Virus genome (UHGV): UHGV-1366603
Source: a virus
Length of the DNA stretch: 64,000 bases
Reading direction: 5' to 3' (one strand)
Shown: positions 3,117 to 16,510 of the stretch, piece after piece
Layout of the letters: each line of letters starts with the position of its first letter
How positions within the stretch are numbered: position 1 is the stretch's first letter
Notes under the pieces: model-generated
The model's input: only the letters and a program-made list of their open reading frames with translations
What the model was told of the DNA's origin: nothing
Database searches by the model: none
Position numbers and translations under genes: made by a program

Positions 3117-3629
3117 GTGGAACAATTCACGCCTGATTTGTCGTTAACTTCACTTAACATGGTTATTTCACTGGTTAACCATGACCTCCAGCTCGACTTG
3201 CAAGAGAACGAGGTTGAAGTCAGCGACGTAAAGACCAGTAACGAAATGGATCGTGACACCACTGCTGTTGTAAAGATAAAACGTCCCGGTAACAGAACGT
3301 TACAAATCTATTACAACCGTTTAACCGCAGAACGTTGGTTAAACCAGCAACCTATTCTGGTGCAAGTAACTGGAGAGGGGTTTAGCACACACGATTTAAT
3401 CGATGCGATTAACGCAGCCTGTGGCAGTAACCTGCAACCCGAAGATCTTCAGGACGATTCATTTACAGTAGGAAAAGACGCTGTAACGTTACAGGTATCA
3501 CCTAACTCCCTAAGTTATAAAGGCCAATTCTCTGTTTTGGTTTTTGGTAACGGCGAAGAAGCCGCAGTAACAAAAGATGACAACCTAATCGTTACCGCAG
3601 ATAATCGCGTCTTAACCTTTGGAGGTTAA
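3117..3629 (+). CDS. Hypothetical protein; possible weak member of the dispersed NTKVTLTA/Y-R-L family
   Basis: GTG start after RBS aggaggt; 170-aa ORF; motif TTAVVKIKRPGNRTLQIYYNRLT. Confidence 0.45.
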   Translation: MEQFTPDLSLTSLNMVISLVNHDLQLDLQENEVEVSDVKTSNEMDRDTTAVVKIKRPGNRTLQIYYNRLTAERWLNQQPILVQVTGEGFSTHDLIDAINAACGSNLQPEDLQDDSFTVGKDAVTLQVSPNSLSYKGQFSVLVFGNGEEAAVTKDDNLIVTADNRVLTFGG

Positions 3630-3631
3630 CA

Positions 3632-4252
3632 GTGGCTGAACTGGTAGGAAAGGTACGCATTCACGAGCTACCGTCACTTTCAGAAGACATCACTGGTGTG
3701 GTGGTGTTAGCGTCTAAGGAACAAACCGAATATCAACTCCCGATTGAGAATTTAGGGGGCGGCGAGGTTACAGTGAGTCCGTCAGCGAATAACATCCTTA
3801 AGTCTAACAGCGACGGACTGTTTGTTGACGGCGCACATCCTATTGTACCGAAAATGGATGCAAAAACCTTATCGGGAAATATGGTGGTAGAAAAAACGTT
3901 GACAGGCGGTGCAGTAATCTGCAAAACAACAGTTGACGTTAATAATAGACTGGGGGTTTCGCAATTATCTGGAGTGTCAATTTATAGCCAGTGTCTGCTG
4001 GAAAATAAATTGGTTTACCTGGCAGAAGACGGCAGTATTATTGATGCGTACTTCTACATTAGTAATACAAAGACCACAGCCAGTACAATAACCCACACCA
4101 TTCGGGTTGTCTTAGCGAAAGTACCTTCTAAAGTTGTCGATATCACCGATTTATCTGAAACTGAGGTGCAGTACGAGAATGGTAATTTGCCTGTTAAGAT
4201 CGTTATTAAGCATCTTACAGGGACAACACTTTCCCAGAACGGAATGAAATAA
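3632..4252 (+). CDS. Hypothetical protein
   Basis: 206-aa ORF, GTG start 2 nt after upstream stop; followed by terminator. Confidence 0.5.
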   Translation: MAELVGKVRIHELPSLSEDITGVVVLASKEQTEYQLPIENLGGGEVTVSPSANNILKSNSDGLFVDGAHPIVPKMDAKTLSGNMVVEKTLTGGAVICKTTVDVNNRLGVSQLSGVSIYSQCLLENKLVYLAEDGSIIDAYFYISNTKTTASTITHTIRVVLAKVPSKVVDITDLSETEVQYENGNLPVKIVIKHLTGTTLSQNGMK

Positions 4253-4262
4253 ATTTTAGGTA

Positions 4263-4306
4263 GTAGGGGCTAAGCCCCTACTACCTTTCTTTTTTTTTAT
4301 TTTTTC
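4263..4306 (+). terminator. Intrinsic terminator
   Basis: Hairpin gtaggggc-taa-gcccctac followed by a long T-run. Confidence 0.7.
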
Positions 4307-4332
4307 TCAGATATATATTACCTAGAGGAGAG
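4307..4332 (+). promoter_or_regulatory. Copy 1 of recurring promoter-like motif TCAGATATATATTACCTAG(A/G)GGAGAG
   Basis: Near-identical motif also at 8362, 40079 and 44424, always upstream of a + strand gene and followed by a short hairpin. Confidence 0.5.
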
Positions 4333-4378
4333 CGAAATTTACATTCGCACTATTAGTTATAGCCGAAAGGAGGATTAG

Positions 4379-5230
4379 ATGTATCACCCGTATTATCTCC
4401 CGCACATTCTAGCAAATAGGGACCCTGGTTATTACTACGAACAAACAAAGGGGTCTTTTAATCGACTTTACATTCGCGAATTTAATACCGTCGAAATGAC
4501 GGATGACCAGTATCTGGAGTATCTAAAAGACCTTTACGGTTTTTCAAAATCGAATAAAGGTGACTTTGGACGTTCCGCAGTCATTAGGGTTGGTGAATAT
4601 CGTCATTTGGCTAAGCCTGTTACGTACCCTATTGTTACGCGTGCTTATACATCGGATAGGCAATATATTGCTGAACTAAAATTTCCTTTACGGATAGACG
4701 GGCCTCAAATTAGCGCTATAGAAGTAGAAATTCAACCAATTGCTGAAGACTATATTGAAGACTACTTCAAGAAAGCTAAAGAGGTACTCGAGGAGGGTTT
4801 AAGCTACTCTGAAGAAGGAACGATTTGTCTTCTCTCGTTACTCTCGAAGACTTATGTCACAGCAAATTTCCGTATCTCCGATTCTAGTAACTACAATACA
4901 CTTACTCCCTCTAAGACAAAACCGGTTTATTGGGACGATCGGTTAGTCGACAGACACCGTTGGCTTACTATCTTAGATAAAGTAAAATTCGAACCCCCTA
5001 AACACACCGAAGACAACTTTATTTTATTACACAACTTCGAACCGATCTATATCCCGACGCATTTTGAACAAGCCTTACGTCATCGATTGAAGTATGTGTT
5101 GGAATTACGGTACGGGAAGATAAACGGACTAACCTGTTCTGGTGAATTGAGTGAAGAAGAACGCGAGAAGATAAAAATCGTGTTTGATAAGTTGGTTGAA
5201 GATTACATTAAGAAGGAAGGACAATTATGA
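4379..5230 (+). CDS. Hypothetical protein
   Basis: 283-aa ORF with RBS aaggagga. Confidence 0.55.
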   Translation: MYHPYYLPHILANRDPGYYYEQTKGSFNRLYIREFNTVEMTDDQYLEYLKDLYGFSKSNKGDFGRSAVIRVGEYRHLAKPVTYPIVTRAYTSDRQYIAELKFPLRIDGPQISAIEVEIQPIAEDYIEDYFKKAKEVLEEGLSYSEEGTICLLSLLSKTYVTANFRISDSSNYNTLTPSKTKPVYWDDRLVDRHRWLTILDKVKFEPPKHTEDNFILLHNFEPIYIPTHFEQALRHRLKYVLELRYGKINGLTCSGELSEEEREKIKIVFDKLVEDYIKKEGQL

Positions 5231-5670
5231 AACCAAATTCTACTAACGGCATTATGTTACTTTGTGATTCTGAAACGTTAGCAAATCGTATTCGTGGTTT
5301 GATGGAAGTACGTTGGAAGCAAAAGGTTCGCGTGGATTACGCTGCTCCGTTTGTTCACGTTACTTGGTTACCAGAAGCTAGTGATTTCAAAGAAAGTATA
5401 ACCACGAGAAGAATTAAAGAATGGTTATCGGCAATCATTAATAAACAGATTACCGTTATCAATTTCCAACTTTTCGGGACTACTGAAGAACATGAAATCT
5501 TGAAACAGTGTTTAAGAGCGTTGGCTGTTTCCTTTTCTGTTCGTGGTAGCTGCTACACGGCTTACTTTATCGGTTCACTTGAACTGTTTAAGAATACGCT
5601 AATGCTTCAGCTAAAAGAAGACTACAAACTTTTAAATAAAATCGATTTTGAATTTCCAGGTATGATTTAA
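5227..5670 (+). CDS. Hypothetical protein
   Basis: 147-aa ORF; ATGA start-stop overlap with upstream gene. Confidence 0.5.
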   Translation: MKPNSTNGIMLLCDSETLANRIRGLMEVRWKQKVRVDYAAPFVHVTWLPEASDFKESITTRRIKEWLSAIINKQITVINFQLFGTTEEHEILKQCLRALAVSFSVRGSCYTAYFIGSLELFKNTLMLQLKEDYKLLNKIDFEFPGMI

Positions 5671-5680
5671 GGAGTATAAA

Positions 5681-6208
5681 ATGCATCAGAAATTAATGAC
5701 TAGTAACAAAGTTCTCCGTTTTAACCAACGTGAGTTAGAAGTTAGCGGAGAACGAATTGGTCGAGTTCGTAATCTTTTAACTGTGTTAGGTTTGGTCGGC
5801 GTTACATTTACATACACAGGTAAAATTCTTTACGCGACCTGGGCTTCATGCGAAAGTGACGCTACCTACGATAAAATTCTCGATGGTATTAAAGACGACT
5901 CAGTTTATTGTAATGTTTTCCGTGGCGTTTCGTACATCGTTGGTGATAAGTTAATGGATAAACTGAACGCCAAATACGGAGACGGTATTATCACCACCGT
6001 CTTCTTTGGTGGCGATATGCTAATCGTAACGAAAAAGGAAATTAGTCTGGAACTTCAAAGTGATATAAACTACGAACTTCAGATTGGCCCACAATTTAGC
6101 TGTAGAATTAATGTTGTTGTCGGTAAAGATGATTTCTACGATGAAGACGAGTCAGTAGAAATTCGAAAAATTGCGAGTCGCTACATGGATTCTATTTTCC
6201 GTAGTTAA
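5681..6208 (+). CDS. Hypothetical protein
   Basis: 175-aa ORF with RBS aaggag. Confidence 0.5.
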   Translation: MHQKLMTSNKVLRFNQRELEVSGERIGRVRNLLTVLGLVGVTFTYTGKILYATWASCESDATYDKILDGIKDDSVYCNVFRGVSYIVGDKLMDKLNAKYGDGIITTVFFGGDMLIVTKKEISLELQSDINYELQIGPQFSCRINVVVGKDDFYDEDESVEIRKIASRYMDSIFRS

Positions 6209-6264
6209 TAATCAAAAAGGGCTGTAAGTCCCCCACATAGTGTAAACCCCTAAAGGAGCATTAA

Positions 6265-6780
6265 ATGTCTGTAACAATCAACATGAATCTTTATACCAAA
6301 CGTGAACGTCAAATCTTGGCTAATCAGCCAGGCGTTACTACTATCGACGGTAAACCTATCGACCCATTAAAAGTCGTTGTCGCACACAACTGTTTCGAGA
6401 AAGACTGGGACATCATGTATTTCCGTTGCCGTTCTGTCGCCAACGCACTTACCCAGCTCTCTAACTATCATCCCGGTCCAGTATTAAAAGACTGGGTTTG
6501 GTTAGTCCCTAAAACACCTTCAGCGATTGAGTATCCGTCGGGTATGGTCTATATTCGTCCTGTCGCTTATCCAGAACGTTTAAAAGAATATCTGGAGGTT
6601 ATCTGGGACCGACCTCGTAAAGAGCTGGTGACGATTATCCGTTTACTTCAAATGTGCGATATCCCCAATGTTTCGAATCTGAAACTTACGTCTCGCGATG
6701 TTAACCAGGCTTACTGGGAACTGGAGTGGACTGAACCGAAATTCGAAAACACTAACCGCATCTTCTTGCACCGGGGGTAA
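6265..6780 (+). CDS. Hypothetical protein
   Basis: 171-aa ORF with RBS aaggag. Confidence 0.5.
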   Translation: MSVTINMNLYTKRERQILANQPGVTTIDGKPIDPLKVVVAHNCFEKDWDIMYFRCRSVANALTQLSNYHPGPVLKDWVWLVPKTPSAIEYPSGMVYIRPVAYPERLKEYLEVIWDRPRKELVTIIRLLQMCDIPNVSNLKLTSRDVNQAYWELEWTEPKFENTNRIFLHRG

Positions 6781-6782
6781 AA

Positions 6783-7064
6783 ATGTTAGATTGGTTGTTG
6801 GGCTTAATTAACTCACGTCAACAGGAGCTTTATAAAGAAAACACGCGATTGCGGCAGGAACTTAGTAACAATCGTCAGACCAAACGACAATTAATTCGGA
6901 TGGTAAAACAACAGGCGCGTTGTATACGAGATATTGATTATCAGTATCACCGTCTGAATACCTTAGACCCAACAACAAAAGCTTTAGGCAGTACGATTGG
7001 ACACGCACGGAAAGTCAGTCACGATGCGTTAGTTCGAATCGACACAATAGAAGAGAAACTGTGA
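6783..7064 (+). CDS. Hypothetical coiled-coil protein
   Basis: 93-aa ORF immediately after upstream stop; Q/R/L-rich heptad-like sequence. Confidence 0.45.
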   Translation: MLDWLLGLINSRQQELYKENTRLRQELSNNRQTKRQLIRMVKQQARCIRDIDYQYHRLNTLDPTTKALGSTIGHARKVSHDALVRIDTIEEKL

Positions 7065-7071
7065 TATAACC

Positions 7072-7095
7072 CCTCTCAGGAATTCCTGAGAGGGT
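7072..7095. promoter_or_regulatory. Perfect 10-4-10 palindrome (ccctctcagg-aatt-cctgagaggg)
   Basis: Stem-loop centred on GAATTC between genes, no downstream T-tract; possible operator or RNA structure. Confidence 0.35.
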
Positions 7096-7106
7096 GGAGT
7101 AACAAT

Positions 7107-7481
7107 ATGTCATTACTGTTATACAAATTCAGATGTTGGCTAGACACCTCGTTTAAAACCTGGGCTTGTGGTGAGAACGTCAGAACGATCGTTAAAGCAA
7201 CAGACTGGTATACCGAAATTGTGGTACTCCCTGACGGTAAACTAATTAATGTTCAGGTACGCAATATCACCGTCAGGATAGGTCGTAAAGGCGGTGCTAT
7301 TTTTCTTCCCGAACTCTATCTGGTTTCTGCATTGGAACTGAAGGCAGGACCGATGTTATTTGGTCGAACAGCGCAACACTATTTCGATACGCTTATTAAA
7401 CTTAGTAATAGTGTAAAGAAATTAGGTGAGTCGGTCCATAGATTTATTAAAGAAACTGAACGAACTACGGTGGAGATTTAA
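7107..7481 (+). CDS. Hypothetical protein
   Basis: 124-aa ORF. Confidence 0.5.
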   Translation: MSLLLYKFRCWLDTSFKTWACGENVRTIVKATDWYTEIVVLPDGKLINVQVRNITVRIGRKGGAIFLPELYLVSALELKAGPMLFGRTAQHYFDTLIKLSNSVKKLGESVHRFIKETERTTVEI

Positions 7482-7484
7482 AGG

Positions 7485-8350: not shown

Positions 8351-8361
8351 TAAAAATAATT

Positions 8362-8387
8362 TCAGATATATATTACCTAGGTGAGAG
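8362..8387 (+). promoter_or_regulatory. Copy 2 of recurring promoter-like motif
   Basis: TCAGATATATATTACCTAGGTGAGAG followed by inverted repeat gtgagag...ctctcac (8381-8402). Confidence 0.5.
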
Positions 8388-8431
8388 TTCAGTTACTCTC
8401 ACTTAACAAAACCATTTTAGGAGAATATACC

Positions 8432-8926
8432 ATGAACTTCACTAGACTTGATTACACTAACGAATTAGTTGACAAAGAAAAGTACAAATTCACTGTTGAC
8501 TTGGGTTACGGATTACTGGACGTAGAAAAAGATGTTCTGCACAAAGAATTCCGTGAGCAGTTCGGTGCTTTGTTCTACGCAGGTTTCCGCAGAAATACTA
8601 TCGATATCGGTTATAGCGCAACACCACATACCGACGAAGAAATGTTTAAGCTGGTAACACAGATTATCGGAACGCGTGGAGCCAAACGACTCAATTATTC
8701 CAACGAGCTTGTTTCGAAAGAACATTACAAGTTCACCGTTAGACTACCAGTTCACCTCACAGAAGAAGATAAGAACATCCTCTATAAAGCCCTTCAAACC
8801 GAATTCGGTAAAACGCTCAAAGTAGGGTTCCGTAATCGTAGTATCGATATCGGAATTAGTGTGGATGTGTGTAGTGACGATGACCTTTACGAATTAGTTT
8901 CGGAAGTTATCGGAAAACATCTCTAA
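8432..8926 (+). CDS. Hypothetical protein with internal tandem domain duplication
   Basis: Start at ATG 8432 (RBS aggaga). Two ~80-aa halves align: YTNELVDKEKYKFTVDLG...GFRRNTIDIGYS versus YSNELVSKEHYKFTVRLP...GFRNRSIDIGIS. Confidence 0.55.
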   Translation: MNFTRLDYTNELVDKEKYKFTVDLGYGLLDVEKDVLHKEFREQFGALFYAGFRRNTIDIGYSATPHTDEEMFKLVTQIIGTRGAKRLNYSNELVSKEHYKFTVRLPVHLTEEDKNILYKALQTEFGKTLKVGFRNRSIDIGISVDVCSDDDLYELVSEVIGKHL

Positions 8927-8974: not shown

Positions 8975-9448
8975 ATGTTTAGCTTAGAATTCAACAACAA
9001 CGTTCATGCCGCTTTCCATTCAGTAGAAAAAACCTATAAAATTAAAGATCTGTTTACTGGCAAAAGCGATGCTTTTTCGCTGATTAAAAATGGATGGAGA
9101 AAAAGCAAAGAGCTGAAACGTGATTCAAACCTTTACATTATTGAACGTTTAACTGTAACCGACAATCATGTCACTGCACGTTATGACTTTGTTGTAATGG
9201 ACGCTTTCATCCCGTTAGACAAACTGGTTATCTTGGCTGACAATGGGGAACGCTACGAGGCGGGCGAGAACGGTGAACGTTCATTTACTAATGACGGTAA
9301 ACTAAAAGTTCGCCATTCTGTAATGGCAGTTTGCTACGACGGTGAATGGCTAGGATCTCTGAATAAAGGATTGGATTTGATTGACGCCGATGATTTAGAA
9401 AATTTCGCCGATGTTTTCTCCAGTTATTTGTTTGAATATAAGTGGTGA
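8975..9448 (+). CDS. Hypothetical protein
   Basis: 157-aa ORF with RBS aaggaa. Confidence 0.5.
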   Translation: MFSLEFNNNVHAAFHSVEKTYKIKDLFTGKSDAFSLIKNGWRKSKELKRDSNLYIIERLTVTDNHVTARYDFVVMDAFIPLDKLVILADNGERYEAGENGERSFTNDGKLKVRHSVMAVCYDGEWLGSLNKGLDLIDADDLENFADVFSSYLFEYKW

Positions 9449-9453
9449 GTTCG

Positions 9454-9885
9454 ATGAGAAAAGAACTAAAATCAGAGTTACGCGATTACATTCGTAAATA
9501 CCCAGCCAGTATTCCGGTACTGGCTTCACTCTCTCTGTCGGGTATGGACCTTAATACCTTAACGGTAGAAAAATTCCACGAAGTGGTAAAATCGTCGTAT
9601 CAAATTGTTACCGATATGTCGGTGCGGAAACGTGCTGATTACCCAGACGGTGATTTCGGTACAGAGATGTTCACAGACTACGCAGTTGCGTATCTGATGG
9701 GACGTCACTTTATCGATAAACTCAATACGGTTGTAGAAGGAGAAACAGTCACGGAAATTGTCAATGCTTGGCAACAACGTATTGTGAGTGACGCTTACTG
9801 TCGTCAAGCCTTAAAGAAAATGTCGGCGGTAGCATTAACCAATGACCAACGTGCTTTAGAGTTCCTTAAGCACAATTACGAATAA
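9454..9885 (+). CDS. Hypothetical protein, paralog of 10746..11177
   Basis: ATG at 9454 chosen over the track's GTG at 9442. N-terminus RKELKSELRDYIRKYP..VLA parallels LKDDIRNYIRNNP..VLA in the paralog. Confidence 0.5.
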   Translation: MRKELKSELRDYIRKYPASIPVLASLSLSGMDLNTLTVEKFHEVVKSSYQIVTDMSVRKRADYPDGDFGTEMFTDYAVAYLMGRHFIDKLNTVVEGETVTEIVNAWQQRIVSDAYCRQALKKMSAVALTNDQRALEFLKHNYE

Positions 9886-9906: not shown

Positions 9907-10668
9907 ATGTTTAATATTGAGATTACCCCACTCGTTAAAACTGAAATCCGTCCGGTTCCTGAAGCACAGTTACTCGATCAACTTTATCATGTATTCCTGG
10001 ATAAAGGTGTACATTTCCGTGTAGAGCAGCTCAATGACGAAAGCATCGTATTCTACTGGACTCACAGCAACGATTATCTTTGCGATACTATCGCGAAAGA
10101 AATCGGCGAGTTACTCAACCCAGCAGAAGGTACCACGAACGCCTGGGCGGAACCTACCGAGACCGAACAACCGAAAGTCGAAGAACAGCAGAAAGACGAA
10201 CCACACGTCCTCTGGTACGAAGGTAAGAAGATTAAGGAAATTAAAGAAGCGTTAGAGACCCTCTATCCTGACGATTTAGGCATTTATTCGGATAACAGCA
10301 AGCTCGTCGTTCGATTGAAGAAAGACGATCGTAATCTCATGGAAGAAATTAGTTCTATCGTTAAGCTGATCGATAATGATGCCGTTCGACTTATTTCGAT
10401 TCATGGTATCGGAAAAGATACCGCTGATGAACTCATGCGTGTGGCTGTTCACGAACACAAGGAGAAAATTCATCAATCCGTTTACAAAGGCGAAACGCTC
10501 ACCGTTTTGATCGACAACGATGTTGAGGTTTTCAAATCATTAACGAACTTTTTGCGAATTGTTTCAACGGATTCTTATATCGAAAAAACACGTGCCCTGC
10601 TTCTCGAAAAGCTTTTTAATATTTACAACAAAGATTGCGATTGTCCTAATTGTCAAAAACGTCGTTAA
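9907..10668 (+). CDS. Hypothetical protein with C-terminal CDCPNC motif
   Basis: 253-aa ORF; acidic central region. Confidence 0.5.
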   Translation: MFNIEITPLVKTEIRPVPEAQLLDQLYHVFLDKGVHFRVEQLNDESIVFYWTHSNDYLCDTIAKEIGELLNPAEGTTNAWAEPTETEQPKVEEQQKDEPHVLWYEGKKIKEIKEALETLYPDDLGIYSDNSKLVVRLKKDDRNLMEEISSIVKLIDNDAVRLISIHGIGKDTADELMRVAVHEHKEKIHQSVYKGETLTVLIDNDVEVFKSLTNFLRIVSTDSYIEKTRALLLEKLFNIYNKDCDCPNCQKRR

Positions 10669-10692
10669 TTAACGACGTTCTAAATTCATCTA

Positions 10693-10725: not shown

Positions 10726-10745
10726 TTACCTAAAGGAGTATTAAA

Positions 10746-11177
10746 ATGTTTTTCGTATTAAAAGATGATATCCGTAACTACATTCGTAACAATCCGATTG
10801 CTCTAGGCGTTTTAGCAGGTTTCTGTCGTCCAAATACTGACTTCGATTTAGTTAAGTTAGAAGAATATCAGGAAATTGTGAACACTACCTACATGCAGAT
10901 CTGTAGCTGGGGTAAACGTCCTCGTGAGGAGTACCCTGTTGGTGAGTTAGGTGACACCATGCACCGTGACCAGAACCTGATGCACGAATTCGTTGAATAC
11001 ACACTGGAAAATCTTAACTATCCACTCCTGGTCGACACTGTACCAGAAATGGTTGACGAATGGTTAAAACGTGTTTATAGCGATCCTACCGCCAACAAGT
11101 TACTGAGCCAGATGTCACAAACTTCTCGTGACATCGACACTCGTACGCTGATGTACTTAGCGCACAACGTACGTTAA
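10746..11177 (+). CDS. Hypothetical protein, paralog of 9454..9885
   Basis: 143-aa ORF with RBS aaggag; conserved N- and C-terminal blocks with the paralog. Confidence 0.5.
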   Translation: MFFVLKDDIRNYIRNNPIALGVLAGFCRPNTDFDLVKLEEYQEIVNTTYMQICSWGKRPREEYPVGELGDTMHRDQNLMHEFVEYTLENLNYPLLVDTVPEMVDEWLKRVYSDPTANKLLSQMSQTSRDIDTRTLMYLAHNVR

Positions 11178-11186
11178 TCTCTCTCC

Positions 11187-11240
11187 GCTATAGACTTCGG
11201 TCTATAGCGGAATTAATTTTCTTTCCCTTTTCTTTTTTGT
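11187..11240 (+). terminator. Intrinsic terminator
   Basis: Hairpin ccgctatagac-ttcg-gtctatagcgg followed by long T-rich tract. Confidence 0.7.
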
Positions 11241-11344
11241 TATTTTGACACCACTTTACTTACACCCCACCCGACTATTCCTATGCTGGCTGAGGGATGT
11301 AAAACGACCTCTTAAACCTTTTTTACTTACTGTGAGTTAACGCG

Positions 11345-12193
11345 ATGTCTCTTACGTCAAAACAGAAACTGCTAAAACTCATCAACACTGAAAACAATAT
11401 TAGTCCACCGTTGACTTTCAGTGATGTTGATATCGGAGAACCTACCGGTACTGGGGTTGATACCCAGGTGGTTCTGACCTCTAAACTCAAAGGCGATGAG
11501 TCTACTACTTTAACAGTGACTTACCACCGTCGTAATTTACCTGACTACCTAACCGGCGAGTTGGTATTCGGTAACGACAGTGTGGTAACCGCATCGGATT
11601 TGCTTAATGCGATTAACGCAAAATACAACCTAAATATTTTACCCTCGGATATCGTTGACGCAAAAGTTGAAGGCGAAACCCATCAGCTTACCGCTAACGA
11701 GAAATCTTACGAGTGGTGCGGTGTAGTAACACTTACGCTGCGTGATCCTATTGACCTGACTGAACTGTTACCGGTTACACAATTAGAGAATCTGGTAGAG
11801 TATCCGTCCACGAAGAAAGGTAACGCGGCGGTTTATTCTCACCCGATTGATTTCACCGCAGAAAAAGATTACCTTGACCCGATTACTATCAACGACACCG
11901 TCGACCTGGCTGAGTTAGCCACTAAACTGGCTAACGTCGTTGATGAGAAATGGGTAAGCGTGCCTAAGAACGCGGCTAACAACCTGTTCGGTGCGAGGGT
12001 TATTTACGATGGTCCAACCGCAGGTTACGAAGGCGCAAATACGAAGTTCACACGTGTGTTGGTGCTGACGCTCAGCCCGCTGTGTTCTAACCTGACCGGT
12101 AATCTGTTAATCCACTTTAACGGCACCGATCGTCCGAAGTCGAAGATTGAATTAGCGCAGACTAATCCGGTCTTACCGGGATTCTTAGATTAA
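11345..12193 (+). CDS. Hypothetical protein, member of dispersed NTKVTLTA/Y-R-L family
   Basis: 282-aa ORF; N-terminal SDVDIGEPTG...TTLTVTYHRRNL. Confidence 0.5.
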   Translation: MSLTSKQKLLKLINTENNISPPLTFSDVDIGEPTGTGVDTQVVLTSKLKGDESTTLTVTYHRRNLPDYLTGELVFGNDSVVTASDLLNAINAKYNLNILPSDIVDAKVEGETHQLTANEKSYEWCGVVTLTLRDPIDLTELLPVTQLENLVEYPSTKKGNAAVYSHPIDFTAEKDYLDPITINDTVDLAELATKLANVVDEKWVSVPKNAANNLFGARVIYDGPTAGYEGANTKFTRVLVLTLSPLCSNLTGNLLIHFNGTDRPKSKIELAQTNPVLPGFLD

Positions 12194-12206
12194 GAGGATT
12201 ACAGTA

Positions 12207-12704
12207 ATGGCCAATCAAGAAACTATCTTCGACCTTATTAAAAAGGCTAACCCAGACGCCGAGTTCGACACCACTAAAGTCACGCTGGGTGATCCGGTCG
12301 TAACCACTGGTACTTACAATACCGAAATTACGGTTGCGTCGATTAAGAATCTCGGTTACACTAACAAACAAACGTTCCAGTATAACCGCATTGACGCAGG
12401 TTTGTATTTCCTGAACGTATTACCGAAGCTGTTAGTGGAGTCTGCAACGACTACCGCTGACTTACTGCCCGTCATTAACGAGCAGTACAGCCTAACCCTT
12501 ACAGAAGACGACGTGTGGGTAGAACAGGTTGGTGAGTTACCGTTAGACGGTAGCGCAATCGAACACGGTATTTTCTTCCGTCCTGAATGTTTAACCTGGG
12601 TAGGCGGTTTTACGGTGCGCGTTGCACGTAAACCTGCTGAAGATGTTGAACCTGCGCCGAAAGCAGCTAAAGCACGTACAACTCGTGCACGAAAATCCAA
12701 GTAA
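12207..12704 (+). CDS. Hypothetical protein, same family, with Lys/Arg-rich C-terminal tail
   Basis: 165-aa ORF; TKVTLGDPVV...TFQYNRID; C-terminus PKAAKARTTRARKSK. Confidence 0.5.
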   Translation: MANQETIFDLIKKANPDAEFDTTKVTLGDPVVTTGTYNTEITVASIKNLGYTNKQTFQYNRIDAGLYFLNVLPKLLVESATTTADLLPVINEQYSLTLTEDDVWVEQVGELPLDGSAIEHGIFFRPECLTWVGGFTVRVARKPAEDVEPAPKAAKARTTRARKSK

Positions 12705-12708
12705 GATT

Positions 12709-12746
12709 TGGGTGGGGTAAAACCCACCCAACGTTTTTCTTTTTTG
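12709..12746 (+). terminator. Intrinsic terminator
   Basis: Hairpin tgggtgggg-taaaa-ccccaccca followed by T-run. Confidence 0.7.
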
Positions 12747-12768
12747 TGTAAAATGGGAGTTAAACAAA

Positions 12769-13359
12769 ATGGCTGAACGTTGGACTAAAGAAGGTATTAT
12801 TGAATCCAAAACGGATTTAGAAGGCGGGTACGTCAACGACCCTGACGATTTAGGTGCAGAAACGAACCACGGTATCACGGTAACGACTGCACGTGAGTAC
12901 GGTTATAAAGGGAAAATGAAAGACCTTACCCGTACTCAAGCATTCGATATCTACGATCGTGGTTGGTGGAAGAAACTCAAACTCGATGAGATTTTCGCTA
13001 TCTCGCCTTTACTGGCTGACAGAATGTTTGATTTCGGGATTAACGCAGGGCGTGCTAACTGTGTGAAATCGCTACAGCGTATTCTCAACGTGTTGAACAA
13101 CGAAGGTAAACTCTACGCGGACATCGATGTTGACGGTGGAATGGGGCCTAAAACGCTGGGTGCGTTGAACGCGTACCTGAAATACCGTAAAGATGAAGGG
13201 CTAAGCATTTTAATCTTTGCGTTAATCTCGCACCAAGTAACTTACTACACGGAAATCTCCGAGAAACGTAAGCGAAACGAGAAATACACCTACGGCTGGT
13301 ACGGCCGCGTGTTCAGAGAAATGGCAGATTATGCGGTAAAAGCGGGGTTAGTAAAATGA
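12769..13359 (+). CDS. Endolysin: GH108-like lysozyme with C-terminal peptidoglycan-binding domain
   Basis: N-terminal EGGYVNDPDDLGAETNHGIT is characteristic of glycoside hydrolase family 108; C-terminal region resembles a PG_binding_3-type domain. Confidence 0.75.
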   Translation: MAERWTKEGIIESKTDLEGGYVNDPDDLGAETNHGITVTTAREYGYKGKMKDLTRTQAFDIYDRGWWKKLKLDEIFAISPLLADRMFDFGINAGRANCVKSLQRILNVLNNEGKLYADIDVDGGMGPKTLGALNAYLKYRKDEGLSILIFALISHQVTYYTEISEKRKRNEKYTYGWYGRVFREMADYAVKAGLVK

Positions 13360-13460
13360 ACTGGTTTGCTAAACTCTTAGCGTTATTGTGGAAAGCGTTA
13401 ACGTCTGGTCGAAAACGTAAAGACGAAAAACGTGGGCAAGAATTCTTCTGGTTTTTGTAA
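13356..13460 (+). CDS. Small ORF (34 aa) with hydrophobic N-terminus and basic C-terminus
   Basis: ATGA overlap with the endolysin stop; MNWFAKLLALLWKALTSGRKRKDEKRGQEFFWFL. Below the ORF-track length cut-off. Confidence 0.3.
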   Translation: MNWFAKLLALLWKALTSGRKRKDEKRGQEFFWFL

Positions 13461-13466
13461 GGAAAG

Positions 13467-14141
13467 GTGTGGGTAATGGAGAAGCTTCAATATAAACGTT
13501 TAGATAATAAGTGGTTTGTATTAACGGAGGATTACCATTATCCGTTTACGTTACGTGAGATTTATCACGACCACGTACACTTAGACCGTGCGGTTTATTT
13601 AACGGGCGTATTACCTGACACGCAACTGTGGTTAACAGCACCGAAAGGGTTCGTAACGGACTTAGCGTCGATACCCGAACACTTACAGGGAATTTTCCAT
13701 CCCGACGGGCCTTGGGCACCGGCTGCGTGTATTCACGACTTGTTATACCAGAAATGCAGTACGGAACGTAGCTACCCTATGACACCCGGTGGTAACGTTT
13801 CTCGAATTATCGATAAAGAGTTCGCTGACTTAACGTTTCTGCGTATTATGCAGTCGTTAGAAATCTCACCGTATATCTGCCAAACGTTTTATAAAGCTGT
13901 TGTAGGTTTCGGTTGGGATGCTTACGTAGACCCTAACGCGAAACCGTCTTATTCCACTAACGACTACCGTACGTTAGATTACAATCGAAACTATTTGTTC
14001 GTTCGCGAGTTTAAGGAACCTGCTATTCCTGACCACGAACGTGTTGATATCACCACAGGTTGTCCCGTTAATGTCAAATACCTGAACATTAAACGGGCTT
14101 TTCTGTCTGGGAGGGAAGATGTTTCATCCAAATCCGAGTAA
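13467..14141 (+). CDS. Hypothetical protein, possibly DUF1353-like
   Basis: Motif GFVTDLASIP...IHDLLYQ resembles DUF1353-type proteins (from memory). Confidence 0.45.
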   Translation: MWVMEKLQYKRLDNKWFVLTEDYHYPFTLREIYHDHVHLDRAVYLTGVLPDTQLWLTAPKGFVTDLASIPEHLQGIFHPDGPWAPAACIHDLLYQKCSTERSYPMTPGGNVSRIIDKEFADLTFLRIMQSLEISPYICQTFYKAVVGFGWDAYVDPNAKPSYSTNDYRTLDYNRNYLFVREFKEPAIPDHERVDITTGCPVNVKYLNIKRAFLSGREDVSSKSE

Positions 14142-14634
14142 TTTTAAAATCAAAGAGTTAGTACCACAATCGTACATCGCCAAATACGGCGATTCTGCAA
14201 TTCGGTTTATGAACCCGTTGTTAATGATTTCGCTACAACAGATTCGTAACCGTTTCGGCAGAATGGTGATTAACTCGTCTGCTGCGCAACAGCGTGGCCT
14301 AAGAACCTTAGACTTTTTCATCAACCAAGAAAAGCCTAAGGGCGGTAACTATAAACAACGTGCGTTACAACTCTACTCTGATTCAGGGAGTCAGCACAAG
14401 TTCGGCAACGCATTTGATGCGACTCTGTTAGATTCAACGGTAAAACAAGTCCACGATTACATCGCCGCCAATCCTGATGAGTTTCCGTTTATTCACTTTA
14501 TTGAATGCGACATCAGTTGGTTACATATCGATGTTCGTAACCAACCGAATATCACGTTCTGGTCACCGAATCGGGGTACTGTGAAAGTCGTGAAACAAAG
14601 CCCTATCGATTGGAGCGCCTTAGTTAAAATCTAA
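14119..14634 (+). CDS. Peptidase M15-like cell wall hydrolase
   Basis: SQHKFGNAFDA and WLHIDV fit the zinc-binding H..D / H motifs of M15 peptidoglycan peptidases. Confidence 0.6.
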   Translation: MFHPNPSNFKIKELVPQSYIAKYGDSAIRFMNPLLMISLQQIRNRFGRMVINSSAAQQRGLRTLDFFINQEKPKGGNYKQRALQLYSDSGSQHKFGNAFDATLLDSTVKQVHDYIAANPDEFPFIHFIECDISWLHIDVRNQPNITFWSPNRGTVKVVKQSPIDWSALVKI

Positions 14635-14725
14635 GCGCGTAATCCGAAACTTAGGGTGATTGTACCTTATTTTGTATAAACCGTCTTAGAACGCGTTCTA
14701 GCGCGTTTTACGGACAAAATAAACC

Positions 14726-14757
14726 TACCCTCCTGCTAAGCAGGAGGGTATTTATTA
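14726..14757. terminator. Bidirectional intrinsic terminator between convergent genes
   Basis: Hairpin taccctcctg-ctaa-gcaggagggta flanked by T-rich sequence on both strands. Confidence 0.65.
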
Positions 14758-15234
14758 TTCTACCGGGTGCAACATAGTGCCGGTATCTGGAATGCTGCCT
14801 TCGTGACATCTGAAGAACGTTACACCTTTACCTTCACCCGTTTTGTAGTTGACGGTAGAATACGCAAACGTTGGGGTTTTCGACAGTAACCCGTTTACAC
14901 GGTAATAGCGCTCACCGGTAACGACGTTTAAGTTACCGTCCACCTTACCTAACAGGTCTTTATAAAGTTGCGGAGATTCAATTTTACCTTCGTCCCATGT
15001 AGCGACCCAATTCGCCCCTGTATCCATGACTAACACCGAAAGGGGCATCAGTTTTAGACTAGACGGTACGGGTTTAAAATCGTCGAATTCTTGAGAAGCA
15101 CCTGTACAGGTGTAAATGACCATATCGTGTTGGTCAACAGGTACGGTGGAGAACTGACCTTCTGCGTTCGGCTGAATAGCACAACTTGCCAATGTCATTA
15201 CAAAAGCAACGACCACGAGAATGCGTTTTAGCAT
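14755..15234 (-). CDS. Putative lipoprotein
   Basis: Signal peptide MLKRILVVVAFVMTLASC with lipobox L-A-S-C; 159 aa; opposite orientation to neighbours. Confidence 0.6.
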   Translation of the reverse strand: MLKRILVVVAFVMTLASCAIQPNAEGQFSTVPVDQHDMVIYTCTGASQEFDDFKPVPSSLKLMPLSVLVMDTGANWVATWDEGKIESPQLYKDLLGKVDGNLNVVTGERYYRVNGLLSKTPTFAYSTVNYKTGEGKGVTFFRCHEGSIPDTGTMLHPVE

Positions 15235-15372
15235 AATCTCACCCTTATTAAAATTAAGAAAAATTATTTTTTCAGGTTAGCGCCTACTGCCAACCGTCAT
15301 ATCTATATTTTAGTAAATGTCTAAAATAACTTTCTTATGCAATCCACCCCTACCACTTACGAGGTAAAAACG

Positions 15373-15909
15373 ATGGCTAAAGCCTTCAATCAGCAGCTTA
15401 TCGAAGCTGTAAAAGCCAAAAACCCTGAAACTGCTTCTAATCTAACCGTAGAAGACGTTGACTTTGGTGCCGTAGAAGCACATAGCGGAAACGGTGGCCG
15501 TAACACCAAAGTTACGCTGACTGCAAAAGAAGAAAGTGCTAACTTTACTGGCAGTAAAGAATTCCACTACACTCGTCTGGCTTCTCAAGATCTGATCGGT
15601 GCCAAAGCTTACGAACAAGCCGGTAGCCTCGATCTGGAAAACTCTGTCATCGTAACCAAACTCAACGAAGAAATGGTTACTAAAGGTTATACCGATGACG
15701 CTTTCGCTGAAGGCGAACTGACCATTGAGAAAACTGAAGGGGATAGCGGCGCTAAAGTTTACACCGTTAAAGTAAACGATGCACACATTAAATTCCTGGC
15801 TGGTACTATTGCCGTCTTCACTTATTCCAACCCAGCTCCTGAGAAGGTAGCACTGAGCGGTCTGGAAGGTGAACTTGATGGCTTCACTGCACCGGGTGTC
15901 GGTGGCTAA
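15373..15909 (+). CDS. Hypothetical protein, NTKVTLTA family, paralog of 15980..16510
   Basis: Start at ATG 15373 (RBS gaggtaaaaacg). Shares NTKVTLTA...(F)HYxRL and C-terminal GELDGFTA with the next gene. Confidence 0.55.
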   Translation: MAKAFNQQLIEAVKAKNPETASNLTVEDVDFGAVEAHSGNGGRNTKVTLTAKEESANFTGSKEFHYTRLASQDLIGAKAYEQAGSLDLENSVIVTKLNEEMVTKGYTDDAFAEGELTIEKTEGDSGAKVYTVKVNDAHIKFLAGTIAVFTYSNPAPEKVALSGLEGELDGFTAPGVGG

Positions 15910-15917
15910 GTAAGCGA

Positions 15918-15950
15918 AATCGGGGGGGGGTGACCTCCCCCGATATTTCT
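15918..15950 (+). terminator. Intrinsic terminator
   Basis: G/C-rich hairpin atcggggg...cccccgat followed by T-rich tract. Confidence 0.65.
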
Positions 15951-15979
15951 CTATCTCGTTTTATTAAGGACCTAAGATA

Positions 15980-16510
15980 ATGGCCGCTACTAACCAGATG
16001 ATGTTGGTCGCGCTTTATAATGCTGCTAACACTGAGCTACCGCATCAGATTACTGATAAAGAAGTGTCCTTTGGTCTCCCTACTGCGCTGGAAGGCGAAA
16101 GTAAGAATACCAAAGTTACCATGACTGCACTACCGGGTTCTGAGAATTTCAAAGGCGAAATCGAACTGCATTACGATCGTCTGGAGCCGGGTGTTGTAGG
16201 ACGGATTGAACTAACTGACGATCTGTCTCGCTGGGTTCAAGAAAATGAACTCCGCGCTTGGTTACAATATTACATCAACAAAGTAAAACCTGACGACGCT
16301 ATCGCACCAGGCGACGTTGTGTACAACACCGAAGACCAGAAAGACGAACATGAAAACGTCACTCTGCGTACCGTGACGTGCACCGTTACCGAAAAGAACC
16401 TCCGTTATAAACCGGGTGTAATGGCAACTTTCGTAATTACACCGAAGGTTGTCGATAATCGTATTGACCTGGCCACCACCAACGGTGAGTTGGACGGTTT
16501 TACTGCTTAA
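15980..16510 (+). CDS. Hypothetical protein, NTKVTLTA family
   Basis: 176-aa ORF; NTKVTMTALPGSENFKGEIELHYDRL; ends GELDGFTA. Confidence 0.55.
   Translation: MAATNQMMLVALYNAANTELPHQITDKEVSFGLPTALEGESKNTKVTMTALPGSENFKGEIELHYDRLEPGVVGRIELTDDLSRWVQENELRAWLQYYINKVKPDDAIAPGDVVYNTEDQKDEHENVTLRTVTCTVTEKNLRYKPGVMATFVITPKVVDNRIDLATTNGELDGFTA

What the first reader, a model, noticed from the sequence alone, without database searches (positions are those of the whole stretch)
3117..16510. Dispersed paralog family with NTKVTLTA / Y-x-R-L N-terminal domain
At least four, possibly five, genes (11345, 12207, 15373, 15980 and weakly 3117) share an N-terminal pattern: hydrophobic-x-x-D-V-x-F/I-G-x-P ... N-T-K/Q-V-T/V-L/M-T-A/S ... 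F/Y-x-G ... H/Y-Y-x-R-L. The 15373 and 15980 pair also shares the C-terminal GELDGFTA and is flanked by strong terminators, suggesting high, insulated expression. One member ends in a Lys/Arg-rich tail.
Basis: seen in the sequence. Interest (0 to 1): 0.45.

Follow-up and report, generated by a model that had tools for sequence, protein, structure and literature searches.

The report
Jumbo-phage DUF7941 virion fibre paralogs
The five genes are real paralogs of a known jumbo-phage virion protein family (Pfam DUF7941, the "paralog family B" of Salmonella phage SPN3US), recently proposed to chain head-to-tail into long host-sensing filaments, so they are new members of a known family, not a new kind of system.

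Summary
Observation confirmed. All five ORFs (3117, 11345, 12207, 15373, 15980; + strand) score above the Pfam gathering cut-off for PF25613/DUF7941. They are the only five of 110 window ORFs that do.

The window is an uncultured SPN3US-like chimallivirus of about 223 kb, syntenic with Salmonella phage SPN3US. The genes correspond to SPN3US gp122 (best match of 3117), gp138 (11345), the N-terminal half of gp141 (12207) and gp160 (15373 and 15980, a duplicated pair). These belong to the published "paralog family B" of virion proteins.

The shared GELDGFTA tail is nearly invariant among gp160 orthologs and aligns with the linker proposed to dock onto the next subunit. The hairpin terminators and codon bias fit high expression.

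New here: the 17-gene SPN3US array is reduced to two genes, gp160 is duplicated, and 11345 carries an extra gp160-like C-terminal peptide. Where the proteins sit in the virion (baseplate or head) remains unresolved in the literature.

The parts
3117..3629 (+). Member A, 170 aa: short DUF7941 protein (N-terminal domain plus short tail ending ...NRVLTFGG). Its best SPN3US match is gp122. It lies directly downstream of a T-even-like gp38 adhesin module.
   Evidence: Pfam PF25613 3.2e-16, 60.1 bits; phrog_2935 2.6e-24; tblastn 31-35% identity to the SPN3US_0122 locus and its Erwinia phage counterparts.
11345..12193 (+). Member B, 282 aa: full-length DUF7941 (N-terminal domain, linker, C-terminal domain). 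Ortholog of SPN3US gp138 and homolog of Goslar gp22 and phiKZ gp127.
   Evidence: Pfam 3.2e-52, covering profile positions 5-275 of 276; 46% identity to SPN3US_0138; Goslar gp22 28% identity, E=1e-10; PDB 9xqd PHIKZ127 E=1.6e-5. The AF2 model is unusable (pLDDT 42).
11774..11806 (+). Post-domain linker motif of B (VTQLENLVEYP). It lies in the same alignment columns as the GELDGFTA tails of D and E and as the T-x-L-x-G-L-x-YP motif of SPN3US gp138-144.
   Evidence: MAFFT alignments A3 and A7. Pairwise score alone is not significant, so the correspondence rests on the alignment.
12143..12190 (+). C-terminal extension of B (KIELAQTNPVLPGFLD), absent from SPN3US gp138 and resembling the C-terminal peptide of E. 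Candidate second docking peptide.
   Evidence: Smith-Waterman score 38 against a shuffle mean of 15.7 (sd 3.5), 0 of 5000 shuffles reaching it. The best match of the B tail anywhere in E is E's own C-terminus. The extension is conserved in P0141 (79% identity) and in L008. Phage homologs cover only residues 1-259.
12207..12704 (+). Member C, 165 aa: N-terminal domain only. Its best match is the N-terminal half of SPN3US gp141. Probably co-transcribed with B (13-nt gap).
   Evidence: Pfam 6.4e-28, 98.4 bits, profile positions 9-155; tblastn 37% identity to SPN3US 117942-118400, which is SPN3US_0141.
12630..12701 (+). Lys/Arg/Ala/Pro-rich tail of C (KPAEDVEPAPKAAKARTTRARKSK). It takes the place of the linker motif.
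   Evidence: Read from the translation and the alignments; conserved in L008.
15373..15909 (+). Member D, 178 aa: gp160/Goslar gp23-type subunit (N-terminal domain plus conserved C-terminal peptide). Likely the major, highly expressed subunit. It is a variable locus among otherwise near-identical phages.
15853..15891 (+). Conserved C-terminal peptide of D (LSGLEGELDGFTA). Candidate docking strand.
   Evidence: L161, G166, L168 and F171 are at least 90% conserved in 65 sequences. Model pLDDT is about 92 over residues 151-170.
15980..16510 (+). Member E, 176 aa: second gp160-type paralog, 30% identical to D, ending in ...RIDLATTNGELDGFTA.
   Evidence: Pfam 36.9 bits; phrog_4862 7.4e-34; BLASTP against D 3e-16. 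Its best phage hits are the same gp160 loci as for D.
16460..16507 (+). C-terminal peptide of E (RIDLATTNGELDGFTA).
4258..4286 (.). Hairpin (13 bp, bidirectional, followed by a T-run). It ends the unit containing A and ORF 3632-4252.
   Evidence: -24.5 kcal/mol, z -5.2.
11184..11211 (+). Hairpin upstream of B. It separates B and C from the preceding block of small genes.
   Evidence: -20.8 kcal/mol, z -6.8.
12708..12731 (.). Hairpin directly after C.
   Evidence: -19.1 kcal/mol.
14726..14750 (.). Bidirectional hairpin between 14119-14634 (+) and 14755-15234 (-), on the upstream side of the D locus.
   Evidence: -21.6 kcal/mol.
15919..15944 (+). G/C-rich hairpin 10 nt after the stop codon of D.
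   Evidence: -25 kcal/mol, 0 of 200 shuffles as stable.
16548..16574 (.). Bidirectional hairpin plus T7 run after E, shared with the convergent gene 16590-17261 (-).
   Evidence: -20.4 kcal/mol, z -5.1.

Best explanation
The five genes encode members of the DUF7941 family (SPN3US 'paralog family B'), a multigene family of virion proteins of chimalliviruses (phiKZ-like, nucleus-forming jumbo phages).

Each protein has a globular N-terminal domain of about 150 residues. Its first 75 or so residues carry the family-wide motifs N-T-K-V-T-L-T-A and Y-x-R-L. A short conserved peptide of the form x-x-L-x-G-[FL] follows the domain.

Most likely mechanism (inferred from homologs): the peptide or linker of one subunit docks onto the N-terminal domain of the next. 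Homo- and hetero-oligomeric chains then grow head-to-tail into flexible filaments, anchored at the outer peripheral baseplate, where phiKZ gp127 sits. The filaments enlarge the capture radius of the virion and can carry receptor-binding modules.

Proposed roles in this phage:
- D (15373), and perhaps E (15980), are the abundant gp160/Goslar-gp23-type chain subunits (domain plus peptide).
- B (11345) is the gp138/Goslar-gp22/phiKZ-gp127-type subunit with an added C-terminal domain. Here it also has an extra gp160-like C-terminal peptide.
- C (12207) has the domain but no docking peptite equivalent, and ends in a basic tail. It could accept a peptide but not donate one.
- A (3117) is a gp122-like copy placed next to the gp38-type adhesin genes.

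What is shown and what is inferred:
- Shown here: homology, fold, synteny, motif conservation, transcription-unit boundaries and codon bias.
- Taken from papers on homologs: virion incorporation, copy number and filament formation.
- Inferred: that these particular proteins polymerise, and where they sit in the virion.
For: Family membership:
- Pfam DUF7941 above cut-off for all five, and only these five in the window.
- SPN3US gp122, 138, 139, 141, 144, 145, 148 and 160 also match DUF7941.
- Gene-by-gene synteny with SPN3US_0137-0162.

Fold:
- The D model has pLDDT 94.2.
- Foldseek against BFVD gives 59 hits at E of 1e-3 or better. All of the named ones are jumbo-phage proteins, including a RAY virion structural protein, a Moabite 'tail fiber protein' and a Goslar 'tail protein'.

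Homology to the characterised proteins:
- D to Goslar gp23, E=6e-9; B to Goslar gp22, E=1e-10.
- B to PHIKZ127, E=1.6e-5.

Literature:
- Goslar gp22 and gp23 are estimated at about 580 and 2140 copies per virion. AlphaFold 3 predicts head-to-tail docking of the linker on the next N-terminal domain. Purified gp22 forms filaments in negative-stain EM. A gp126-gp127 heterodimer was fitted into phiKZ baseplate density (preprint 10.64898/2026.04.21.720040).
- phiKZ gp127 terminates the gp139 band of the star lobe (PMC13250141).
- SPN3US gp141 and gp160 are among the most abundant virion proteins (PMC5694885).

Motif:
- The C-terminal peptide is one of the two most conserved segments of gp160-like proteins.
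- It aligns with the post-domain linker of full-length members and with the Goslar gp23 C-terminus.

Natural fusions:
- Library proteins carry two or three tandem DUF7941 modules, or DUF7941 followed by GP38 adhesin, BNR/sialidase-like, arabinofuranosidase or beta-propeller domains. This fits a serial, fibre-building attachment module.

Expression:
- D, E and C rank 1, 4 and 6 of 68 ORFs for optimal codons.
- Stable hairpins bound each unit.
- None of the four early-promoter-like motifs precedes a family gene.
Against: - No multimer prediction, virion proteomics or imaging exists for this phage, so polymerisation of these proteins is untested.
- The Goslar filament 'cloud' is a model in an unreviewed preprint. 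No DUF7941 density was seen in the Goslar baseplate map, and only one gp127 per star lobe is modelled in phiKZ.
- SPN3US proteomics places family B in the head. All 17-21 members were detected in purified tailless particles of two different tail mutants (PMC5105663; PMC5694885; PMC10052503).
- In the monomer model the C-terminal peptide of D is already confidently placed (pLDDT about 92). It may pack in cis rather than in trans.
- The equivalence of the B linker with the D/E tails is not significant by pairwise score.
- The B model failed.
Confidence: 0.6

Rival explanations
1. Head-associated proteins. The family members are capsid components, as concluded for SPN3US paralog family B: external decoration, or internal proteins packaged with the DNA and possibly ejected. 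They would not be baseplate filaments.
For: - SPN3US family B proteins (gp138-154, gp160/161, gp83, gp237) were detected in CsCl-purified tailless particles of the gene 64 mutant and in head-only particles of the 255(am107) mutant. They were classed as head proteins, and gp141 and gp160 were annotated 'Head ejection?' (PMC5105663; PMC5694885; PMC10052503).
- High copy number suits a capsid-wide location.
Against: - Self-assembling filaments and bundles, as seen for purified Goslar gp22, could co-purify with tailless heads. This reconciliation is my own inference.
- Family B proteins are not among the SPN3US head proteins reported as processed by the prohead protease.
- Fusions to GP38 adhesin and glycosidase-like domains point to the outside of the particle and to host contact.
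- No fold similarity to known decoration proteins.
Confidence: 0.2
2. Static baseplate building blocks only. The proteins are low-order structural components or adaptors of the peripheral baseplate (like the single phiKZ gp127 per star lobe, perhaps with one partner). The paralogs would fill different fixed positions, and no long filaments would form in vivo.
For: - phiKZ cryo-EM models one gp127 per star lobe.
- At most a gp126-gp127 heterodimer has been fitted into density.
- The in vitro filaments of Goslar gp22 could be an artefact of overexpression.
Against: - Estimated copy numbers of hundreds to thousands per virion in Goslar, and high abundance of SPN3US gp141 and gp160, exceed any fixed set of baseplate positions.
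- The strong codon bias of D suggests very high expression.
- Tandem multi-module natural fusions exist.
Confidence: 0.15
3. No true family. The shared N-terminal pattern would be compositional chance, and the genes unrelated small ORFs.
For: Some pairs show no pairwise similarity (A against C: BLASTP E=8.9). No direct pairwise link joins {A, B, C} to {D, E}.
Against: - All five pass a curated Pfam threshold with E from 3e-9 to 3e-52.
- Independent PHROG profiles agree.
- The fold of D matches a solved homolog of B.
- Orthologs lie at syntenic positions in SPN3US, and all belong to one published paralog family.
Confidence: 0.01

Closest known systems
SPN3US 'paralog family B' (gp83, gp138-154, gp160/161, gp237, candidate gp122; Thomas and co-workers 2016-2023)
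   Same: Direct orthology and synteny:
- B = gp138 (46% identity).
- C = N-terminal half of gp141 (37%).
- D and E = gp160 (48% and about 38%).
- A's best match is gp122 (31%).
- The flanking genes are the same: gp137-like protein, GH108 endolysin, DUF1353, DUF4376 and a radical SAM pair.
   Different: - The 17-gene tandem array gp138-154 is reduced to two genes. The roughly 19 kb spanning gp139-155 is replaced by C alone.
- gp160 is duplicated into D and E.
- B has a 23-residue C-terminal extension with a gp160-like peptide.
- C is a truncated gp141-like protein with a basic tail.
- A related complete genome has only 8 (perhaps 9) members, against 20-21 in SPN3US.
Goslar gp22 / gp23 (DUF7941 'fibre cloud' proteins; bioRxiv 10.64898/2026.04.21.720040)
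   Same: - B has the gp22 architecture (N-terminal domain, linker, C-terminal domain; 28% identity).
- D has the gp23 architecture (N-terminal domain plus linker; 29% identity over the full length, including the ...DGF... C-terminus).
- In both phages the genes sit next to the peptidoglycan hydrolase gene and are bounded by hairpins.
   Different: - Goslar has 10 members, several fused to carbohydrate-binding, glycosidase or LRR domains. None of the five window members carries such a domain.
- Oligomerisation and copy number were measured or predicted for Goslar only.
phiKZ gp127 (PDB 9XQD chain 0, outer peripheral baseplate; PMC13250141)
   Same: - Sequence homolog of B (E=1.6e-5 over the linker and C-terminal domain).
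   Different: - phiKZ is reported to have only 2-3 family members.
- Only one gp127 per star lobe is modelled.
- phiKZ has no gp160-type short abundant subunit that I could tie to D.
Pfam PF25613 (DUF7941)
   Same: All five proteins pass the gathering threshold. B spans the whole 276-position model.
   Different: - D and E match only the first 75-80 or so profile positions, so they form a divergent short subfamily (phrog_4862).
- The family is not strictly phage-only. InterPro lists Spiroplasma proteins, according to PMC13375240.

Membership tests
Pfam PF25613 DUF7941 | Whole-protein score at or above the curated gathering cut-off (27 bits) | tested here: met
   60.1, 178.2, 98.4, 37.4 and 36.9 bits for 3117, 11345, 12207, 15373 and 15980. 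Exactly 5 of 110 window ORFs match.
Pfam PF25613 DUF7941 | Fold of the N-terminal globular domain as in the solved member phiKZ gp127 (PDB 9XQD) | tested here: met
Pfam PF25613 DUF7941 | Architecture of N-terminal domain, linker and (optional) C-terminal globular domain | tested here: met
   B covers profile positions 5-275 of 276 and aligns with the C-terminal domains of Goslar gp22 and SPN3US gp138. A, C, D and E cover the N-terminal part only, as Goslar gp23 does.
SPN3US paralog family B | Orthology and conserved position relative to SPN3US_0122, _0138-0154 and _0160 | tested here: met
   tblastn best hits fall on those loci and locus tags were confirmed. Flanking genes are collinear. Caveat: the positional counterpart of gp122 in the related genome NZ_CP173450.1 is a sixth member outside the window (54267-54827), so A may be an extra copy.
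SPN3US paralog family B / Goslar DUF7941 proteins | Incorporated into the virion (mass spectrometry) | not testable with these tools
   Known for the homologs only (PMC5694885; preprint). There are no proteomic data for this uncultured phage.
Goslar-type DUF7941 filament formers | Head-to-tail oligomerisation through docking of the linker or C-terminal peptide on the next N-terminal domain; filaments in vitro | not testable with these tools
   Only monomer prediction was available. Indirect support comes from near-invariance of the C-terminal peptide, its alignment with the family-wide linker, and natural tandem fusions.
Chimalliviridae context | Encoded by a phiKZ-like nucleus-forming jumbo phage | tested here: met
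   - Synteny and 31-49% protein identity to SPN3US, genus Seoulvirus, family Chimalliviridae.
- Source contig of 223,427 bp.
- phiKZ gp131-like giant paralogs at 23500-37295, inferred from size and position against PMC5694885.
- Chimallin itself was not searched for.
PF12699 inner-body / ejection proteins (SPN3US paralog family A) | Match to PF12699 | tested here: not met
   No PF12699 hit for any of the five at E of 1 or better.
Known capsid decoration proteins (Hoc/Soc/Ig-like and similar) | Fold or sequence similarity to a known decoration protein | tested here: not met

The most novel reading that the evidence does not exclude
This phage clade carries a pared-down DUF7941 set of 8 members, against 20-21 in SPN3US. 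That set may expose an assembly 'grammar' for the filaments:
- D and E are chain-extending subunits (domain plus docking peptide).
- B is a branching or adaptor subunit with two donor elements: the internal linker and an acquired gp160-like C-terminal peptide.
- C is a chain cap. It can accept a peptide but has no donor peptide, and its Lys/Arg tail might bind an anionic surface such as LPS, DNA or the capsid.
- D would be the exposed, rapidly diversifying allele (55-93% identity among phages whose neighbouring genes are 93-99% identical). This would reflect selection by host surfaces or by gut immunity.

If true, a minimal and genetically tractable model of a new kind of self-assembling phage fibre would be available in an E. 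coli/Salmonella phage.
Probability: 0.15. Interest if true: 0.55.

Novelty: new member of a known kind. Interest (0 to 1): 0.27.

Why it matters
DUF7941 / paralog family B is among the largest paralog families in any phage, and it accounts for some of the most abundant virion proteins of chimalliviruses. Even so, its location (head or baseplate) and its function are still disputed.

The window adds a natural reduced set from a gut-associated E. coli/Salmonella jumbo phage:
- two genes in place of a 17-gene array;
- a duplicated major subunit;
- a candidate docking peptide that is conserved, and has been copied onto a second paralog.

This does not change the picture of what the family is. It does give concrete, testable constructs (peptide deletions, D/E/B/C pairings) for the filament model. 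It also links the SPN3US proteomics literature to the Goslar and phiKZ structural work, which does not cite it.

Tried and rejected
1. Megablast of 11000-17000 against INPHARED phages: no match. The phage is not in that collection at the DNA level. Protein-level searches were needed.
2. Local HMMs built from the five proteins, and an iterated HMM: no sixth member in the window.
3. AF2 model of B: pLDDT 42, unusable. The allowed alignment held only 96-99% identical orthologs plus short paralogs. The third homolog search with a mixed alignment was swamped by gp160-like hits.
5. Internal duplication of the N-terminal domain, suggested by weak second-domain hits of my iterated HMM: not supported by hhalign of the two halves (probability 0.7%). 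Rejected.
6. B linker against the D/E tails by pairwise score: not significant. Only the B C-terminal extension against the E tail is significant.
8. A late-promoter motif shared upstream of the family genes: only the trivial TATG upstream of B and D was seen. Not pursued.
9. P0327 (1496 aa, 7 profile stretches) looked like a 7-module fusion, but Pfam calls it a Mycoplasma DUF285 protein with no DUF7941. Set aside as a false or very remote match.
10. A weak Spiralin-domain hit for D (E=0.004, below cut-off): not pursued.

Full report
**1. Observation**

I call them A (3117-3629, 170 aa), B (11345-12193, 282 aa), C (12207-12704, 165 aa), D (15373-15909, 178 aa) and E (15980-16510, 176 aa).

- A five-way alignment shows the described pattern. 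Y and R of 'Y-x-R-L' are invariant, and the NTKVTLTA-type strand falls in one column block.
- All five exceed the curated gathering score (27 bits) of Pfam PF25613, DUF7941: 60.1, 178.2, 98.4, 37.4 and 36.9 bits.
- PHROGs independently assigns them to phrog_1037/2935/3589 ('virion structural protein'), and D and E to phrog_4862.
- Scanning all 110 stop-to-stop ORFs of at least 95 aa in the window against Pfam gives exactly five DUF7941 matches. Local HMMs find no sixth.

Pairwise similarity is visible only within subgroups:

- D-E: 30% identity, E=3e-16.
- A-B: E about 1e-5; B-C: E=0.003.
- A-C: nothing.

The unity of the family therefore rests on profiles and on fold (section 3).

- D and E share ...GELDGFTA.
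- C ends in KPAEDVEPAPKAAKARTTRARKSK.
- Stable hairpins (-19 to -25 kcal/mol; at most 1 of 200 shuffles as stable) bound the transcription units at 4258-4286, 11184-11211, 12708-12731, 14726-14750, 15919-15944 and 16548-16574.
- 15373, not the upstream ATG at 15337, is the start of D. There is a GAGG 9 nt upstream, and nearly all homologs are 178 aa.

**2. What the window is**

- There is no DNA-level match in the INPHARED phage collection.
- tblastn gives 31-49% identity to SPN3US-like jumbo phages of Salmonella, Escherichia, Erwinia, Cronobacter and others.
- SPN3US belongs to genus Seoulvirus, family Chimalliviridae.
- The exact D protein is encoded on a 223,427-bp human-gut metagenome contig.
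- Near-identical genes occur on 220-227 kb contigs from many Salmonella, E. coli and Shigella isolate assemblies.
- They also occur on a 221,873-bp circular record filed as a plasmid of E. coli 98232, NZ_CP173450.1, at 93% identity.

Gene order is collinear with SPN3US_0137 to _0162:

| Window gene | SPN3US counterpart |
|---|---|
| 10746 | gp137 |
| B (11345) | gp138 |
| 12769 (GH108 endolysin) | gp156 |
| 13467 (DUF1353) | gp157 |
| 14119 | gp158 |
| 14755 (-) | gp159 |
| D and E | gp160 |
| 16590 (-, DUF4376) | gp161 |
| radical SAM pair (17772-19094 and 19078-20001, both -) | gp163/164 |

C matches best the N-terminal half of gp141. A matches best gp122.

**3. Identity of the family**

The literature already describes these genes.

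- Thomas and co-workers described an 'unexpected 17-member paralog family (gp138-gp154)' (PMC5105663).
- It was later named 'paralog family B', with 20-21 members. gp141 and gp160 are highly abundant in the virion, and gp122 is a candidate member that was not detected in the wild-type virion (PMC5694885; PMC10052503).
- I verified that SPN3US gp122, 138, 139, 141, 144, 145, 148 and 160 all match DUF7941. Family B and DUF7941 are therefore the same family. The Goslar preprint does not mention SPN3US (0 occurrences).

That preprint (10.64898/2026.04.21.720040) reports the following:

- Ten DUF7941 proteins in phage Goslar.
- AlphaFold 3 models in which the linker of one protomer docks on the N-terminal domain of the next.
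- Filaments of purified gp22 in negative stain.
- A gp126-gp127 heterodimer fitted into phiKZ outer-peripheral-baseplate density.

The phiKZ atlas places gp127 at the end of the gp139 band of each star lobe (PMC13250141).

My own links to those proteins:

- D is homologous to Goslar gp23 over its whole length (29% identity, E=6e-9).
- B is homologous to Goslar gp22 (28% identity, E=1e-10) and to PHIKZ127 in PDB 9XQD (E=1.6e-5).
- An AlphaFold2 model of D built on 65 sequences is confident (pLDDT 94.2, pTM 0.81).
- Foldseek against PDB finds nothing significant.
- Against BFVD there are 59 hits at E of 1e-3 or better. All of the named ones are jumbo-phage proteins, including a RAY virion structural protein, a Moabite 'tail fiber protein' and a Goslar 'tail protein'.
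- The model of B failed (pLDDT 42), because only near-identical orthologs were admissible in its alignment.

**4. Anatomy and likely mechanism**

Conservation within gp160-like proteins:

- The two most conserved segments are residues 43-70 (RNTKVTLTA...HYTRL) and the C-terminal peptide 153-174.
- L161, G166, L168 and F171 are at least 90% conserved down to about 40% identity.
- The loop 31-42 and residues 71-125 vary most.

In family-wide alignments the D/E tail (GELDGFTA), the Goslar gp23 C-terminus (..ADGFVKP) and SPN3US gp160 (GELDGFV) fall in the same columns as the post-domain linker of full-length members:

- B: VTQLENLVEYP
- SPN3US gp138: TELSGLLYP
- SPN3US gp141: TKLDGLVYP
- Goslar gp22: VTNLGNLTY

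This linker is the element that the Goslar authors predict to dock onto the next subunit.

Two further features stand out.

- B carries a 23-residue C-terminal extension that is absent from SPN3US gp138. Its peptide SKIELAQTNPVLPGF resembles the E tail NRIDLATTNGELDGF, with score 38 against 15.7 (sd 3.5) and 0 of 5000 shuffles reaching it.
- C has the domain but a basic tail where the motif would be.

Library proteins with two or three tandem DUF7941 modules exist. So do proteins with DUF7941 followed by GP38 adhesin, BNR/sialidase-like, arabinofuranosidase or beta-propeller domains. These fit a serial, fibre-building attachment module.

I therefore favour, at about 0.6, the head-to-tail filament model:

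- D (and E) are the abundant chain subunits.
- B is a C-terminal-domain-bearing subunit with two possible donor peptides.
- C is an acceptor-only unit.
- A is a copy associated with the adhesin genes.

Shown here are homology, fold, motif conservation and gene organisation. Polymerisation and virion location are inferred from homologs.

**5. Expression**

- D has the highest fraction of E. coli-optimal codons among 68 window ORFs (0.733, against a median of 0.512). E ranks 4th, C 6th, B 14th, and A sits at the median.
- Each of D and E has its own downstream hairpin.
- The motif CAGATATATATTAC occurs four times on the + strand (4308, 8363, 40080, 44425), against 0.39 expected. From my own recollection it resembles the phiKZ early-promoter consensus.
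- The motif precedes blocks of small genes, and never a DUF7941 gene. This fits late expression of the family.
- All of this is consistent with high, insulated, late expression, but none of it measures expression.

**6. The open conflict**

- SPN3US proteomics assigns family B to the head, because it was found in purified tailless particles of two tail mutants.
- The only structurally placed member, phiKZ gp127, is in the baseplate. The Goslar model also anchors the filaments there.
- Self-assembling filaments might co-purify with heads. That reconciliation is my inference and is untested.
- I keep 'head-associated' as the main rival (0.2), and 'fixed baseplate components without long filaments' as a second rival (0.15). 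Chance resemblance is excluded.

**7. What differs from known members**

- Relative to SPN3US, about 19 kb (gp139-gp155) is replaced by C alone. The 17-gene array is therefore reduced to B plus C, while gp160 is present twice.
- Both D and E hit the single gp160 locus of SPN3US-like phages.
- In the related complete genome NZ_CP173450.1, an iterated local HMM finds eight members plus one weak candidate. They are the orthologs of A-E, plus 54267-54827 (-), 73930-74508 (-) and 189710-190279 (+). SPN3US has 20-21.
- The member at 54267-54827 occupies the gp122 position, next to the 1001-aa tail protein. A may therefore be an additional copy.
- D is a variable locus. It is 59% identical in IMG/VR contig L008, whose B, C, endolysin and E are 93-98% identical, and 55-93% identical across many 220-227 kb contigs. 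B orthologs are 96-99% identical, with a few at 79-93%. Other mosaic hot spots exist nearby, so this is suggestive only.

**8. Verdict**

The family, however, is already curated in Pfam, described in the SPN3US proteomics papers and now interpreted structurally. These are new members of a known kind from an uncultured phage.

The lineage-specific features (array contraction, gp160 duplication, an extra docking-like peptide on B, a basic-tailed C) are useful for testing the filament model, but they are not surprising in themselves.

Interest is about 0.27. The family also has about 962 representative clusters at 50% identity in public data. According to PMC13375240 it also occurs in some Spiroplasma proteins, so the claim that it is exclusive to chimalliviruses is not strictly correct.

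Noticed in passing
window 3-2954 (+): A T-even-like tail-fibre tip module inside a chimallivirus.
- The ORF ending at 1643 has Gp34_trimer and Peptidase_S74 chaperone domains.
- 1643-2425 is a complete GP38 adhesin (PF05268, 2.6e-69, Gly-rich).
- 2442-2954 has only the Gp38_N domain.
- DUF7941 member A follows immediately. A library protein (P0210, 1537 aa) fuses three DUF7941 stretches to a GP38 domain.
   Followed up: partly
window 4308-4321, 8363-8376, 40080-40093, 44425-44438 (+): The motif CAGATATATATTAC occurs four times (three exact) against 0.39 expected. Each copy lies in an intergenic region upstream of a block of small genes (4379, 8381, 40337, 44495). It resembles the phiKZ early-promoter consensus (my recollection, not checked). 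None precedes a DUF7941 gene.
   Followed up: partly
NZ_CP173450.1 (loci L011-L015); A 221,873-bp circular record filed as 'plasmid p98232-contig_4' of a urinary E. coli isolate is a close relative (93% identity) of this jumbo phage. Contigs of 220-227 kb with near-identical genes appear in many Salmonella, E. coli and Shigella isolate assemblies. This suggests a carrier state or pseudolysogeny, or co-cultured phage. Proteins of this phage are therefore annotated in databases as bacterial.
   Followed up: partly
window 15373-15909 against L003-L008: D is an allelic hot spot. It is 59% identical in L008, where B, C, the endolysin and E are 93-98% identical. Other mosaic hot spots are 14755-15234, 16590-17261 (DUF4376), 17237-17809 and 9907-10668, at 51-75% identity in some relatives.
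   Followed up: partly
window 9442-9885 and 10746-11177 (+): A second, unrelated paralog pair of small proteins (147 and 143 aa; 31% identity over 137 residues, E=1e-26). The second is the counterpart of SPN3US gp137. No Pfam family was found among the window-wide hits.
   Followed up: partly
window 8381-8926 (+): This 181-aa ORF appears to be an internal tandem duplication (...YTNELVDKEKYKFTVDLGYGL... and ...YSNELVSKEHYKFTVRLPVHL...). Seen by eye in the translation.
   Followed up: no
window 23500-37295 (-): Three consecutive giant ORFs (1727, 1394 and 1440 aa). By size and position they correspond to SPN3US paralog family C (gp168-170, phiKZ gp131-like baseplate or fibre proteins).
   Followed up: no
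window 17772-20001 (-): Two adjacent radical SAM proteins (440 and 307 aa), conserved with SPN3US gp163/164. Their function in the phage is unknown.
   Followed up: no
literature /; P0327: DUF7941 is reported in Spaid-like proteins of a male-killing Spiroplasma and in a few other Spiroplasma species (PMC13375240). My N-terminal-domain profile also hit a Mycoplasma DUF285 protein in 7 stretches (P0327), which Pfam does not call DUF7941. A link between the phage fibre module and Mollicutes surface proteins is possible.
   Followed up: no
NZ_CP173450.1 54267-54827 (-), 73930-74508 (-), 189710-190279 (+); weak 69063-69755 (-): Three further DUF7941-like ORFs (and one marginal) lie in the related complete genome, outside the region covered by the window. 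The clade therefore has about 8 members.
   Followed up: partly
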